Origin: a virus
IMG/VR virus record: IMGVR_UViG_3300020122_000155
Location: 41,066-105,065 of that record
Strand: one strand, 5' to 3'
DNA length: 64,000 nt
Notes under the pieces: model-generated
Databases searched by the model: none
Seen by the model: the letters and a program-made list of their open reading frames with translations, nothing else
Told to the model about the DNA's origin: nothing
Shown here: piece after piece, positions 5,324-9,770 of the stretch
Numbering within the stretch: the first letter of the stretch is position 1
How the letters are laid out: every line of letters starts with the position of its first letter
Position numbers and translations under genes: made by a program

Positions 5324-5544
5324 GCTGTTTTTCTCTGCGCCATCTCGCCCTCGATGAATTGCGCGATCTCCCGAAGACATCCGGCGTCAAAAACTGTTCC
5401 CTCTCCTGGCATAAAACAATAGCGACGCCACGAGTTGTACCACTTCACCCGACCGATTACGCAGCCATCGAGCGAGCAAACATCCCACAGGGAGGTTTTG
5501 CCGGTGATCGTCCCCTTGTTCTCGAACTTGAGGAAACTTTTCAT
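5320..5544 (-). CDS. conserved phage hypothetical protein
   Basis: Start MKSFLK; G.VKWY..WRRYCF.P..GTVFDAGCL motif. Confidence 0.65.
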   Translation of the reverse strand: MKSFLKFENKGTITGKTSLWDVCSLDGCVIGRVKWYNSWRRYCFMPGEGTVFDAGCLREIAQFIEGEMAQRKTA

Positions 5545-5882
5545 GCGGACCTCCGATCTCGCACGGGGAAGTAGTATACGTAATCGCGCCACGCCGATCT
5601 CTCTCGAAGTTGTGGCAAATTGGCAATGATCGCCTTCCGCGCGTCCTGGTACATGAACGGTGCGACTTCGAACGATACACGCTCTCCAAGAACCTCAGTC
5701 TGGAAGCTGATCCCGTTCACAGCCAAGCACTCCTTGATCGCCCGGTGCGCGTCCTGCGACTCGGTATGCACAACAACTACGGGCGCTTCGTCTTTCGCGC
5801 TGTGCGGATTGGCGCGGATTGCGGCTAGATCACGCTCGCAGCGCTCCTTGCTTTGATCTACAACAGTCAAAAATGGGCTCAT
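5541..5882 (-). CDS. hypothetical protein
   Basis: ATGA overlaps at both ends. Confidence 0.6.
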   Translation of the reverse strand: MSPFLTVVDQSKERCERDLAAIRANPHSAKDEAPVVVVHTESQDAHRAIKECLAVNGISFQTEVLGERVSFEVAPFMYQDARKAIIANLPQLRERSAWRDYVYYFPVRDRRSA

Positions 5883-7320: not shown

Positions 7321-7712
7321 TTCAGCTTATCCTGCACCTTTTCGGAGATTACGTCACACAGTCCGATTGGATGGCGCAGAACAAAACCAAGAGCACGTGG
7401 GCCGCATTATGCCATGCGACGGTGTATTCCGCGCCGTTTTTATTTATCGGTAGCTGGAAGGCTCTGCTTGTGATCTGGTCCACGCATCTATTGATTGATC
7501 GCTTTCGTCTGGCACGCTATGTCGTGTTCGCCAAGAACTTCCTGATATTCGACGACTTCCACGCGAAGGGCTGGCCGCGTCCGAAGTGGAGCGATTGTAG
7601 CGCGACGGGTTATCCGAGCGCATCCCCTCCATGGCTGGCGGTGTGGCTGCTAATCGCCGCTGACAACACGATGCACTTGGCGATAAATTACGCCCCTCTT
7701 GGGTGGTTATGA
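7317..7712 (+). CDS. DUF3307-family membrane protein
   Basis: LHLFGDYVTQSDWMA..K, H..VY, THLLIDRF, ADNTMH. Confidence 0.8.
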   Translation: MIQLILHLFGDYVTQSDWMAQNKTKSTWAALCHATVYSAPFLFIGSWKALLVIWSTHLLIDRFRLARYVVFAKNFLIFDDFHAKGWPRPKWSDCSATGYPSASPPWLAVWLLIAADNTMHLAINYAPLGWL

Positions 7713-8200
7713 GCATTTATCGCTACACTCTTCGCCGCGAATGGAACGCGCAGAAGCGCGGCGTACTCAACTGGGTAATGTTAAATCCGAGCATGGCGGA
7801 CGACATTTTCGATGATCCGACAATTCGAAAGTGCATTGGCTTCACGAAACGATGGGGATTTTCCGGCTTGGTTGTGACGAATCTCTTCGCCTATCGCGCT
7901 ACGGACCCAAGAGACATGATCCGGGTAGCCCGAAAATCTTGGATGCTCGCCGAGGGTGAGGGGAATCGCGAGACGCTTTTGCGCGAAGCTGACGCCGCAG
8001 AGATGATCTGCTGCGCTTGGGGTAATAACGGCGGCATTAATGGGCGCGATTTGGAAGTTGTGTCGCTCCTCCATGAAACGCACGATCTTTACTGCATTCG
8101 GCGCACGAAGGAAGGCAATCCGGTGCATCCGGTGCGGGAATCATACACGGACGCGCCGGTCTTGTTCTATTCGTGCGTAGGAGAGCGGAAACATGCCTGA
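7709..8200 (+). CDS. DUF1643-family protein
   Basis: YRYTL.R.W, VMLNPS.AD...DDPTIRKC, NLFAYRATDP, AWG, G.P.HP. Confidence 0.85.
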   Translation: MSIYRYTLRREWNAQKRGVLNWVMLNPSMADDIFDDPTIRKCIGFTKRWGFSGLVVTNLFAYRATDPRDMIRVARKSWMLAEGEGNRETLLREADAAEMICCAWGNNGGINGRDLEVVSLLHETHDLYCIRRTKEGNPVHPVRESYTDAPVLFYSCVGERKHA

Positions 8201-8531
8201 CCGCCACGCATGGATAAAGCGAATCCGCAAGGGAGATGTGCTGGAGTCTCGCTCCGGTCGCTTGCGAATCGTTCGCTCTGTTTCGCACAGCGTAATCCCC
8301 GGATACGACATTCGGACGACCGTCATTTTCACGATCATGCGGTGCTCGTGGACGACTCGCTGCTACACGGTTTACACCGGCAACGATCTTGTCCAGATGG
8401 GATACAGGCCGGTCAAAGCCCGCGTCCGACTCGTAAAGCCGTTTGACAAGAAGATTGAGGCGGAGTTTAACCGCAAAGGGAATGCCAGCGAATGCGTGCT
8501 CCGCTGTTGCGACGTTGAAGGTATCGCGTGA
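8193..8531 (+). CDS. hypothetical protein
   Basis: GGAG RBS; operon packing. Confidence 0.6.
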   Translation: MPDRHAWIKRIRKGDVLESRSGRLRIVRSVSHSVIPGYDIRTTVIFTIMRCSWTTRCYTVYTGNDLVQMGYRPVKARVRLVKPFDKKIEAEFNRKGNASECVLRCCDVEGIA

Positions 8532-8764
8532 AACGCGGCGAGAGAATCTGGACCTGCGAGGTTTGCGGCAAAGAGGCTCCGTGGGGTGATGGATGGCAGT
8601 CCTATGGGTCAATTCGCAATGACGAGGGCGGCTTGCCTCCAATTGTGGTTTGCTCGCTGGCTTGCCGCGACGATCAGAAAACCAAGCAGTTGATCGAGGA
8701 GTACTGCGTTGTCGAAGCCGCGATGAAGAAGGAAGGCTATTTCCGTCGAGGACCGTGCCGATGA
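8528..8764 (+). CDS. small Cys-rich (zinc-binding) protein
   Basis: CEVCG...CSLAC. Confidence 0.6.
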   Translation: MKRGERIWTCEVCGKEAPWGDGWQSYGSIRNDEGGLPPIVVCSLACRDDQKTKQLIEEYCVVEAAMKKEGYFRRGPCR

Positions 8765-8773
8765 ACTTTTCTC

Positions 8774-8802
8774 TTGCAAAGCTCAAGGAAGAGGGTTAGA
8801 CT
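8774..8802 (+). promoter_or_regulatory. sigma70-like promoter, predicted leaderless start near 8810
   Basis: TTGCAA (8774-8779), 17 nt, TAGACT (8797-8802); ATG follows after 7 nt. Confidence 0.7.
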
Positions 8803-8809
8803 TTGAGGT

Positions 8810-9235
8810 ATGACGTAGGTGCAAGGTTCGCCAAACGAGCAGTACGTTTACATTTTTGTCCGCCAGGACATTTCCCTTCCTCAGCAGATCGTCCAATCCA
8901 ACCACGCAACGCTTTCCTTTTCTTCCCATCATGGCGTGGAGGGAATCCCAAACATTGTTCTTATCGGAGTCCCCAACGTTGCCGCACTGAAAGAGGCGTG
9001 CGCGTTGCTGTCGGCCAACCAGATTCCGCACTGGAGTTGGACTGAGCCGGATTTCAACCTGGGATTCACAGCCATTTGCACAGCCGCGATTAGCGGATCG
9101 GAGCGCCTATGTCTGGCGCACTACCGCACGTGGAAACCAGTTTTTCCCTCGTCAGCTAACTGCAAGCTGGCAGTCTCTAACACTGCTCATGCTGGGGCGG
9201 GTCCAGCCGAGGGAACCAATGCCGCTGTAGCTTAA
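8810..9235 (+). CDS. Pth2-fold (peptidyl-tRNA hydrolase II / PTRHD1-like) protein; in-frame TAG at codon 3 if started at ATG 8810, otherwise GTG 8819
   Basis: YIFVRQDI....QIVQS.HA, NIVLIGV, W.EPD....TAIC match the phage Pth2-like pattern; the last ~30 codons overlap the tRNA-like genes. Confidence 0.8.
9145..9218 (+). tRNA. non-canonical amber-suppressor-type tRNA (anticodon CUA)
   Basis: Acceptor TCCCTCG/CGAGGGA + A + CCA; D stem AGCT/AGCT; anticodon stem GCAGT/ACTGC with loop CT-CTA-AC; T stem GCTGG/CCAGC. Confidence 0.8.
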
Positions 9236-9290
9236 AGCAGAGCGCTCGCGCAAGCGATAGATGGAGGGTCGCGTCCTTCCAGCGGCACCA
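9221..9290 (+). ncRNA. tRNA-like RNA with a GCAA tetraloop in place of the anticodon loop
   Basis: Acceptor GCCGCTG/CAGCGGC + ACCA; D stem GCTT/GAGC; TCGC-GCAA-GCGA; T stem GGAGG/CCTTC. Confidence 0.75.
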
Positions 9291-9294
9291 GAAT

Positions 9295-9378
9295 GCTTCG
9301 GTAGCTTAAATGCTAGAGCGACCGGCGATCCTCACGGGTTGTCGGTAGATGGTGGTGAAAGGCCATCCCGGAGCACCA
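9295..9378 (+). ncRNA. tRNA-like RNA with an 11-bp anticodon-position arm and 4-nt loop
   Basis: Acceptor GCTTCGG/CCGGAGC + ACCA; D stem GCTT/GAGC; ACCGGCGATCC-TCAC-GGGTTGTCGGT; T stem GGTGG/CCATC; T-run follows. Confidence 0.75.
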
Positions 9379-9389
9379 TCATTTTTTTC

Positions 9390-9417
9390 TTGCAAATATT
9401 CTGGATCTGGTTATACT
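9390..9417 (+). promoter_or_regulatory. sigma70-like promoter of the Hfq-like/replication operon
   Basis: TTGCAA-16-TATACT. Confidence 0.6.
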
Positions 9418-9444
9418 TTTTACTATCCCGCAAGGATAATTTTA

Positions 9445-9498
9445 GCGATAGCCGCCAGCCTTGATCTGGCGGCATATCGCCAGCCTATCAAGGAGGCT
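9445..9498 (+). promoter_or_regulatory. 5' leader: two hairpins with complementary loops covering the RBS
   Basis: 14-bp stem with loop CCTTGAT; 5-bp stem with loop ATCAAGG; SD AAGGAGG lies inside hairpin 2. Confidence 0.6.
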
Positions 9499-9500
9499 TT

Positions 9501-9770
9501 TTGAACCAGCCGCTAAGAGCGCCTTTAGCATCTCCACCGCAGGCGCAACAAAAACCACCTGTCCCAATAAAGCCAAAGCCCAACGATCCCTTTCGAGAGC
9601 AGCTATCTCGTTTCAAGAAAAAGTTTGTTAGGGTCGTTACCACAGAGGGCAAATTTGAGGGTAAATTGATCTGCTTTGATTACGGATCTAAGGCCCTCGT
9701 GATCGAATCCGGCGACAGCCCGATACTGCTTTCCCACTACCATTCCATCGTGATAATCGATGGCCAATAA
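9501..9770 (+). CDS. Hfq/Sm-like RNA-binding protein
   Basis: DPFREQLSRFKKKFVRVVTTEGKFEGKLICFD parallels the Hfq helix plus Sm1 (DPFL..L.....V.....G.KL.G.I..FD); TTG start with AAGGAGG. Confidence 0.6.
   Translation: MNQPLRAPLASPPQAQQKPPVPIKPKPNDPFREQLSRFKKKFVRVVTTEGKFEGKLICFDYGSKALVIESGDSPILLSHYHSIVIIDGQ

What the first reader, a model, noticed from the sequence alone, without database searches (positions are those of the whole stretch)
9120..9235. Pth2-like ORF has no stop before the tRNA, so processing would create a non-stop mRNA
Seen: the Pth2-like fold appears to end near ...LAHYRTWKP (~9139). The frame stays open through all of tRNA 1 and stops only at TAA 9233-9235, inside the D arm of RNA 2. 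Known: arfA mRNA is truncated to a non-stop message so that ArfA accumulates only when tmRNA rescue fails. Inference: 5' maturation of the tRNA at 9145 would leave a stop-less mRNA, making the protein tmRNA-controlled. Ribosomes crossing the tRNA could also compete with its maturation.
Basis: inference. Interest (0 to 1): 0.8.

Follow-up and report, generated by a model that had tools for sequence, protein, structure and literature searches.

The report
Stop-less phage gene reading through tRNA
A small phage gene for a peptidyl-tRNA-hydrolase-like protein has no stop codon of its own and is read straight through the tRNA gene behind it. About 45 related phages keep this layout, so cutting out the tRNA must leave a message without a stop, which looks like a built-in control rather than an accident.

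Summary
ORF 8819-9235 folds as Pth2 up to W105 (9131-9133). It has no in-frame stop before the CUA-anticodon tRNA (9145-9218), reads through all of it, and ends at TAA 9233-9235 in the D arm of a second tRNA-like RNA.

In this one locus that is not beyond chance (about 0.27). In about 100 fetched related loci it is. One deep clade (42 of 46 loci, 35 of 38 sequence clusters) keeps the frame open through the whole first CCA-ended RNA. The other two frames are open in 26 of 76 cases. The abutting RNA has been swapped (tRNA-CUA, Arg, Thr, 52-nt mini tRNA-likes), and the tail is always at least 30 codons.

tmRNA control itself remains untested. An open frame through the entire RNA is not predicted by the simple non-stop model.

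The family also carries a conserved early in-frame stop (ATG-NNN-TAG), and relatives carry phage tmRNA genes.

This scan has already reported the same architecture on other DNA (for example e1-3754324 and e1-5807917). I found no publication describing it.

The parts
8774..8802 (+). Promoter-like TTGCAA-17 nt-TAGACT, ending 7 nt before ATG 8810 (inferred)
   Evidence: Read. It scores 8 of 12, below the scanner's threshold. The same TTGCAA box recurs at 9390-9417. Many relatives have a TAnAnT hexamer 5-9 nt before their ATG.
8810..8818 (+). ATG-ACG-TAG: probable true start, with an in-frame amber as codon 3 (the gate)
   Evidence: 69 of 74 unique related loci have ATG, 1-11 sense codons, then TAG in frame just before the domain. 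56 have exactly ATG-NNN-TAG, several with a good Shine-Dalgarno sequence.
8819..9133 (+). Pth2-fold domain (residues 1-105, ending at the conserved YRxW aromatic residue)
   Evidence: Model pLDDT 89.9. The 12 best Foldseek PDB matches are all Pth2/Bit1. 53 homologues.
9134..9232 (+). 33-codon tail: 4 spacer codons whose last base is tRNA 1 position 1 (9145), then tRNA 1, a 2-nt spacer and the first 12 nt of RNA 2
   Evidence: Predicted coil, pLDDT about 60. The tail peptide is not conserved among relatives because register and RNA differ.
9145..9218 (+). tRNA 1: anticodon CUA, 7-bp acceptor stem, A73, encoded CCA, non-canonical D and T loops. Its 5' end is the expected RNase P site, which lies inside the ORF
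   Evidence: ARAGORN. Cloverleaf minimum-energy fold, -30.7 kcal/mol. Not reported by the Rfam tRNA model.
9233..9235 (+). TAA, the first in-frame stop, in the D arm of RNA 2
9221..9290 (+). RNA 2: CCA-ended tRNA-like RNA with a GCAA tetraloop in place of an anticodon loop
   Evidence: Rfam tRNA, 41.8 bits, with a 4-nt loop. Fold.
9295..9378 (+). RNA 3: CCA-ended tRNA-like RNA with an 11-bp arm and a 4-nt loop in place of the anticodon arm. Its 3' part overlaps a hairpin followed by a T-run
   Evidence: Fold z-score -4.2. Acceptor-plus-NCCA scan. T-run read.

Best explanation
The missing stop is a selected feature of a phage translation-rescue cassette. One short transcript (inferred) carries four things in order: an amber-gated start (ATG-ACG-TAG), a Pth2-fold gene with no stop of its own, a packed array of three CCA-ended RNase P substrates, and a terminator. 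The reading frame runs through the whole first RNA, so message and tRNA precursor are the same molecule with mutually exclusive fates. A ribosome that gets past the amber codon melts tRNA 1 and makes the protein with a 33-residue disordered tail. Each RNase P cut at 9144/9145 releases tRNA 1 and leaves a Pth2 message that ends, without a stop, 4 codons after the domain. Ribosomes on that message stall at its 3' end and go to trans-translation or to alternative rescue factors. I take control of the protein to be the most likely selected function. Under that reading, Pth2-like output is set by the race between translation and processing and by the cell's rescue capacity, as in arfA, on top of the requirement for amber suppression. 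Shown: the geometry, its conservation and the fold. Inferred: co-transcription, RNase P cleavage, tagging, and which consequence is under selection.
For: (1) There is no in-frame stop before or within tRNA 1. (2) Among 46 loci where an RNA abuts the gene, 42 keep the ORF frame open from the domain end to the end of the first CCA-ended RNA. By sequence cluster this is 35 of 38, against 26 of 76 for the other two frames (Fisher p=1.6e-9). Background tRNAs from the same loci are open in 16-51% of cases, depending on register. (3) The state marks one deep clade with few reversions. Within it the first RNA has been exchanged: tRNA-CUA, Arg-TCT, Thr, and 52-nt mini tRNA-likes. It always starts -3 to +25 nt after the last conserved residue, so what is conserved is a processing site at the end of the domain. 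(4) The read-through state persists in L010, L018 and L096, which have neither an amber gate nor a suppressor tRNA. This argues that it concerns the protein or message rather than the suppressor alone. (5) The tail is at least 30 codons, not conserved in sequence, and predicted disordered. That parallels the destabilising C-terminal tail of full-length ArfA (PMC8012679). (6) Context: eight related loci carry a permuted tmRNA (RF04321, 60-91 bits) 1.3-2.8 kb upstream of this gene. PTH2-like genes, tmRNA and RF1 are known to sit in phage tRNA arrays (PMC5966550). The SsrA system is reported to cope with read-through caused by suppressor tRNAs (Ueda 2002, listed in PMC8012679; I have not read that paper). 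(7) After the first RNA ends, frame 0 meets a stop as quickly as the other frames do (median 38 nt, against 51 and 31).
Against: There are no expression data of any kind. Cleavage at 9145, tagging and protein stability are all untested. tRNA 1 is non-canonical and is not reported by Rfam, so even its processing is an inference from its acceptor stem, T arm and CCA. A non-stop model needs no open frame inside the tRNA, yet that is what is conserved. In L027, L033 and L034 the tRNA starts inside the codon of the conserved aromatic residue. More distant homologues, including those of cultured jumbo phages, work with an ordinary stop. So do exceptions inside the clade (L039, L050, L063). The loci are related, so the p-values overstate independence. 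This complete phage genome has no tmRNA of its own.
Confidence: 0.4

Rival explanations
1. Ribosome masking controls the RNA, not the protein. The amber at codon 3 senses suppressor activity. When tRNA(CUA) is plentiful, ribosomes pass the gate, run through the tRNA sequence and keep it unfolded. That blocks RNase P and so lowers further tRNA maturation, giving homeostasis of a potentially harmful suppressor.
For: The amber gate is conserved in 69 of 74 loci. The gate codon matches the neighbouring suppressor: L012 has a TGA gate and a tRNA(UCA). In most loci the first or second RNA that the ORF traverses or enters has anticodon CUA. The frame is open through the first RNA.
Against: A stop anywhere inside the tRNA would mask it equally well, so a fully open frame is not predicted either. 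L010, L018 and L096 read through tRNA-Arg with no gate and no suppressor. In L028, L042 and L073 the ORF stops before it reaches tRNA(CUA). More distant relatives have the gate but no overlap.
Confidence: 0.25
2. Neutral compaction. The stop was lost once when the tRNA array came to abut the gene. The open frame persists because the RNA sequence is constrained, and stop-less products are simply wasted.
For: The read-through state may have arisen only once or twice. Long open frames across several tRNAs occur by chance in these arrays: 27 of 103 background tRNAs lie in a frame of at least 100 codons. This locus alone is within chance (about 0.27).
Against: For the same first RNAs, the used register is open in 35 of 38 clusters while the others are open in 34%. 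The RNA partner and the spacer length have changed many times while the frame stayed open, with spacers of 1, 4, 7, 10 and 13 nt. Single-base changes could create a stop in the spacer (for example AAA 9134), yet reversions are rare across a clade whose proteins are only about 50% identical.
Confidence: 0.15
3. The tail itself is what matters. At least 30 residues of any sequence serve as a linker or degron, or let the whole domain leave the ribosome tunnel before termination.
For: No locus in the read-through clade has a tail under 30 codons. In the 12 loci whose first RNA is short, frame 0 has no stop before +88, against 8 of 12 and 5 of 12 for the other frames.
Against: Tail sequences and C-termini are not conserved. 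More distant homologues have tails of only 4-27 residues. The tail is predicted to be coil. There is no known precedent for Pth2.
Confidence: 0.1
4. The ORF is not really translated past the domain. Ribosomes are blocked by the folded tRNA, or the RNAs are made from their own promoter, so the overlap has no consequence.
For: tRNA 1 is a stable cloverleaf (-30.7 kcal/mol). No expression data exist.
Against: No promoter-like site was found inside the ORF. The spacer is only 11 nt. A frame that is never translated would not be kept open.
Confidence: 0.07

Closest known systems
arfA of E. coli and other proteobacteria (programmed non-stop mRNA, PMC8012679)
   Same: A processing site lies inside the ORF, upstream of the stop. 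The cleaved message has no stop. Uncleaved mRNA gives a longer product with a non-functional tail. The gene product belongs to ribosome rescue and peptidyl-tRNA recycling.
   Different: Here the processing signal is a whole tRNA gene (an RNase P substrate) that is itself a product, not an RNase III hairpin or a terminator. The protein has a Pth2 fold and is unrelated to ArfA. There is an additional amber gate at codon 3. Control by tmRNA has not been shown.
tRNA punctuation of mitochondrial mRNAs (my own knowledge, Ojala et al. 1981)
   Same: [quoted passage not shown]
   Different: Mitochondrial ORFs end in T or TA, which polyadenylation completes to TAA. Here most junctions fall on a codon boundary, and the window leaves TT, so added A residues cannot create a stop. 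Here the frame also continues through the tRNA to a real stop.
PTH2-like genes inside phage tRNA arrays (cluster C mycobacteriophages, PMC5966550)
   Same: A Pth2-family gene is embedded among phage tRNA genes, alongside tmRNA and release-factor genes.
   Different: That paper reports no missing stop, no read-through of a tRNA and no early amber. Cultured jumbo-phage homologues that I checked (ME3, Arash, RsoM2USA) are 35-37% identical, and the gene is followed by other genes, not by a tRNA.
Autoregulatory in-frame stop of prfB (RF2) (my own knowledge)
   Same: An early in-frame stop whose read-through depends on the activity of a translation factor or tRNA that is functionally linked to the gene.
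   Different: prfB uses a +1 frameshift at UGA and senses RF2. Here a suppressor tRNA encoded in the same unit would decode UAG.

Membership tests
Pth2 / PTRH2 (Pfam PF01981) | Pth2 alpha/beta fold | tested here: met
   AlphaFold2 model with pLDDT 89.9. The 12 best Foldseek PDB matches are all Pth2/Bit1 (3erj, 1q7s, 2zv3, 1rlk, 1wn2, 1xty), TM about 0.7, probability 1.0.
Pth2 / PTRH2 (Pfam PF01981) | Match to the Pfam model above its gathering score | tested here: not met
   No Pfam family at E<=1. Only one of 53 homologues carries a precomputed PF01981 hit. A profile search against PDB sequences gives a peptidyl-tRNA hydrolase at E=0.85.
Pth2 / PTRH2 (Pfam PF01981) | Catalytic Lys and Asp (K18 and D86 of S. 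solfataricus Pth2, recalled from my own knowledge) | tested here: inconclusive
   The Asp (D78, in the EPD motif) and a downstream Thr (T88) are invariant. In the HMM alignment, the Lys pair of the PDB enzyme aligns with His-Gln of the family consensus (Q22-Q23 in the window).
Pth2 / PTRH2 (Pfam PF01981) | Hydrolysis of peptidyl-tRNA | not testable with these tools
   Needs an enzyme assay.
arfA-type programmed non-stop mRNA | A processing or termination site inside the ORF, upstream of its stop, conserved among homologues | tested here: met
   The 5' end of an RNase P-type substrate lies -3 to +25 nt after the domain end, with no stop before it, in 42 of 46 loci.
arfA-type programmed non-stop mRNA | The message is actually cleaved there in vivo | not testable with these tools
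   No RNA run was listed.
arfA-type programmed non-stop mRNA | The product is SsrA-tagged and accumulates only when trans-translation fails, and the full-length form is unstable | not testable with these tools
   The only available evidence is a disordered, non-conserved tail.
Mitochondrial-type tRNA punctuation with an incomplete stop | The ORF ends in T or TA, completed to TAA by polyadenylation | tested here: not met
   In 26 of 38 clusters the RNA starts at a codon boundary. The window would leave TT.
Canonical elongator tRNA (Rfam RF00005), for tRNA 1 | Cloverleaf with a 7-nt anticodon loop and an acceptor stem followed by NCCA | tested here: met
   ARAGORN. The minimum-energy fold is a cloverleaf.
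Canonical elongator tRNA (Rfam RF00005), for tRNA 1 | Score above the Rfam gathering threshold, with conserved D-loop GG and T-loop TTC | tested here: not met
   There is no RF00005 match at 9145-9218 even at E<=10, while RNA 2 scores 41.8 bits. The D loop is AACUGCA and the T loop is GGCGGGU.
TAG-recoded (code 15) phage | In-frame TAG in many genes, with ORFs fragmented under table 11 | tested here: not met
   ORFs of up to 1,889 aa are intact under table 11. TAG ends 17 of 83 long open frames, and reading TAG as sense rescues no convincing gene.

The most novel reading that the evidence does not exclude
Maturation of a tRNA is itself the regulatory event. RNase P excision of the phage's suppressor tRNA turns the upstream Pth2-like message into a non-stop mRNA. 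The enzyme would then accumulate only when amber suppression is active (the gate at codon 3) and trans-translation is saturated. This would be an arfA-like AND-gate that lets a phage measure and repair the ribosome-stalling damage its own suppressor tRNA causes.
Probability: 0.25. Interest if true: 0.85.

Novelty: new variant of a known kind. Interest (0 to 1): 0.7.

Why it matters
Protein genes almost never read through a complete tRNA gene on the same strand. Here that layout is kept across a deep clade of soil phages even though the tRNA partner is exchanged. If cleavage and rescue behave as the geometry implies, this would be the second natural design, after arfA, in which a gene's own message is deliberately made stop-less. 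It would be the first in which the cut is the maturation of a functional tRNA. Together with the conserved amber at codon 3, it gives the orphan suppressor tRNAs of standard-code phages a concrete target. It also links suppressor tRNAs, Pth2-like enzymes and tmRNA into one testable rescue module. The cassette is about 600 nt long, so it can be moved into E. coli and tested directly.

Tried and rejected
1. RNA evidence: no RNA holder was listed for 8500-9500, so read laying could not be used.
2. Pfam and PHROGs gave no useful name for the ORF.
It was repeated with the tighter alignment A2.
4. Completion of a stop by polyadenylation, as in mitochondria, is rejected because most junctions are codon-exact.
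5. Whole-genome TAG recoding is rejected.
6. A phage-encoded tmRNA in this genome was not found with ARAGORN, RF00023 or RF04321.
7. An internal promoter for the RNAs was not found by the consensus scan.
8. A conserved C-terminal degron in the tails is rejected because the tail ends differ between loci.
9. Re-initiation at the codon after TAG, in place of read-through, is unlikely. That codon is mostly ATT, ATC, GTT or GTC.
10. Literature searches found no description of an ORF reading through a tRNA or of an amber-gated Pth2. The library is limited to open-access papers and preprints.

Full report
**What is in the sequence.**
The window is the last 64 kb of a complete 105,065-bp virus record with direct terminal repeats. 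The frame starting at GTG 8819 stays open for 138 codons, to TAA 9233-9235.

ARAGORN finds one tRNA in the whole phage, at 9145-9218. It has anticodon CUA, a 7-bp acceptor stem, A73 and an encoded CCA, and its minimum-energy fold is a cloverleaf.

Two more CCA-ended cloverleaves follow, after spacers of 2 and 4 nt. RNA 2 (9221-9290) matches Rfam tRNA at 41.8 bits but has a 4-nt GCAA loop where the anticodon loop should be. RNA 3 (9295-9378) has an 11-bp arm in that position. A T-run comes next.

**The protein.**
Pfam gives nothing. An AlphaFold2 model built on 18 homologues is confident over residues 1-108 (pLDDT 89.9). Its 12 best PDB matches are all Pth2/Bit1 structures (TM about 0.7).

The last conserved residue is W105 (9131-9133). 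In a model of the full 138 residues, the last 28 are coil with pLDDT about 60.

The Asp and Thr of the Pth2 active-site region are invariant. The Lys position aligns with His/Gln, so the enzymatic activity is unproven.

**Is it more than chance?**
In this locus alone it is not. Thirty-three stop-free codons at 55.5% GC have a probability of about 0.27 (my arithmetic).

I therefore fetched 100 related loci: 16 viral, 4 genomic and 80 metagenomic. Of these, 74 are unique around the gene. Every locus was anchored on the codon aligned with W105.

The loci fall into two groups:
- **Ordinary stop.** In about 28 more distant loci the gene has an ordinary stop 12-126 nt after the anchor, and ARAGORN finds no tRNA within about 200 nt downstream of the anchor.
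- **Abutting RNA.** In 46 loci a tRNA or a mini tRNA-like RNA starts -3 to +25 nt after the anchor. These RNAs were recognised by ARAGORN, or by a 7-bp acceptor stem followed by NCCA.

In 42 of those 46 loci the ORF frame stays open to the end of that first RNA. By sequence cluster the count is 35 of 38, while the other two frames over the same stretch are open in 26 of 76 cases (Fisher p=1.6e-9). Background tRNAs from the same loci are open in 35%, 16% and 51% of cases for the three registers.

On a maximum-likelihood tree the read-through state marks one deep, well-supported clade with few reversions. Inside that clade:
- The first RNA has been exchanged repeatedly (tRNA-CUA, Arg-TCT, Thr-GGT/AGT, odd-looped tRNAs, 52-nt mini tRNA-likes).
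- Spacers of 1, 4, 7, 10 and 13 nt keep one register.

In the window the register is the one in which the canonical U8-A9-G10 of a tRNA would be an in-frame TAG. This tRNA has UCA there.

A control shows that long open frames across tRNAs do occur by chance in such arrays. They occur at the per-frame rate already used as the null.

The loci are related, so the p-values are optimistic. Even so, the pattern is hard to explain without selection against a stop before or inside the first RNA.

**Two further regularities.**
First, once the first RNA has ended, frame 0 meets a stop as quickly as the other frames do (median 38 nt, against 51 and 31). The constraint therefore ends there.

Second, no read-through locus has a tail shorter than 30 codons. 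In the 12 loci whose first RNA is short, frame 0 has no stop before +88, against 8 of 12 and 5 of 12 for the other frames. I have no firm explanation for this minimum length.

**Context that changes the reading.**
In 69 of 74 loci the domain is preceded in frame by ATG, 1-11 sense codons and TAG. Fifty-six have exactly ATG-NNN-TAG, several with a good Shine-Dalgarno sequence. The window has ATG 8810-ACG-TAG.

The codon after the TAG is mostly ATT, ATC, GTT or GTC, so read-through is more likely than re-initiation.

L012 has a TGA gate and a tRNA(UCA). L010, L018 and L096 have neither a gate nor a suppressor tRNA, yet still read through a tRNA-Arg. The missing stop is therefore not simply an appendage of suppression.

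The phage itself uses the standard code.

Eight related loci, seven of them with an ordinary stop before any tRNA, carry a permuted tmRNA (RF04321, 60-91 bits) 1.3-2.8 kb upstream of the gene. The window's genome has none.

PTH2-like genes, tmRNA and RF1 in phage tRNA arrays have been reported before (PMC5966550). Cultured jumbo-phage homologues (35-37% identical in the three I looked at) are followed by other genes, not by a tRNA.

**Mechanism.**
What follows from the geometry is this. If the unit is one transcript, then every mature tRNA 1 leaves a Pth2 message that ends without a stop 4 codons after the domain, and every ribosome in the tail keeps tRNA 1 unfolded. Co-transcription is likely: no internal promoter-like site was found and the spacer is 11 nt.

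Which consequence is selected is an inference. I favour control of the protein (arfA-like, PMC8012679) for four reasons:
- The conserved element is a processing site at the end of the domain, whatever the RNA is.
- The state survives without a suppressor tRNA.
- The tail is long, variable and disordered, like the destabilising tail of full-length ArfA.
- The neighbourhood is a ribosome-rescue toolkit.

Against this reading: the model does not require an open frame inside the tRNA. One lineage would lose the conserved aromatic residue on cleavage. Relatives manage with an ordinary stop.

The rival reading is that ribosomes passing the amber gate mask the suppressor tRNA and so limit its maturation. 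It explains the gate well. It fails for loci without a suppressor, and for loci where the ORF stops before tRNA(CUA). Neutral compaction and a functional tail remain possible.

**Earlier work.**
I found no paper describing an ORF that reads through a tRNA gene or an amber-gated Pth2.

This scan has reported the same architecture on other genomes (e1-3754324, e1-3288186, e1-5807917, e1-3634854). Other notes on this window describe the amber start and the tRNA mimics. My counts were made independently on loci fetched here, and they agree with those notes.

Noticed in passing
window 8810-8818; loci L001-L100: ATG-ACG-TAG lies in frame directly before the Pth2-like domain. An early in-frame TAG is conserved in 69 of 74 related loci, 56 of them as codon 3. 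The gene therefore seems to need amber suppression by the neighbouring tRNA(CUA).
   Followed up: partly
L012:3200-3600: This relative has ATG-CAT-TGA as its gate and a tRNA with anticodon UCA 207 nt after the domain. No CUA tRNA was found within 3 kb. Gate codon and suppressor anticodon appear to change together.
   Followed up: partly
window 9221-9290 and 9295-9378; for example L004:2549-2600, L028, L042: These are CCA-ended tRNA-like RNAs without an anticodon loop. Many relatives have a 52-nt mini form: a 7-bp acceptor stem, a tetraloop hairpin, a T-arm-like hairpin and NCCA. They are packed 1-10 nt apart in arrays and look like RNase P and CCA-enzyme substrates of unknown use.
   Followed up: partly
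L009:1656-1858, L082:1047-1271, L012:2170-2435, L090:517-738, L100:713-932, L013:1321-1516, L077:1087-1314, L039:591-842; L104: Phage-encoded permuted tmRNA genes (RF04321, 60-91 bits), with tags such as AKAPKALAMAAAA, lie 1.3-2.8 kb upstream of the Pth2-like gene, mostly in relatives whose gene has an ordinary stop. One read-through phage (the L001 record) has one 47 kb away.
   Followed up: partly
window 9145-9218: tRNA 1 has no GG in its D loop and has T loop GGCGGGU. ARAGORN draws a 6-bp anticodon stem and a 3-nt variable loop. The Rfam tRNA model does not report it at all. Positions 8-10 are UCA, not UAG, which keeps the overlapping ORF open.
   Followed up: partly
window 8774-8802 and 9390-9417: Two similar promoter-like boxes (TTGCAA, 16-17 nt, TAGACT or TATACT) flank the cassette. 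The first ends 7 nt before ATG 8810, which suggests a leaderless message. Many relatives have a TAnAnT hexamer 5-9 nt before their ATG.
   Followed up: no
window 7703-8197 and 9501-9767: The neighbouring genes are a DUF1643 protein (E=4.9e-39) upstream and an 89-aa ORF with a weak LSM-domain match (PF21166, E=3e-4, below the cut-off) just downstream of the RNA array.
   Followed up: no
L099:46-1786; L014:593-868 and 5329-5565: Open frames of 100-125 codons run through three or four consecutive tRNA genes in the arrays of related phages. The number is roughly what the per-tRNA openness predicts, so this is probably chance.
   Followed up: partly
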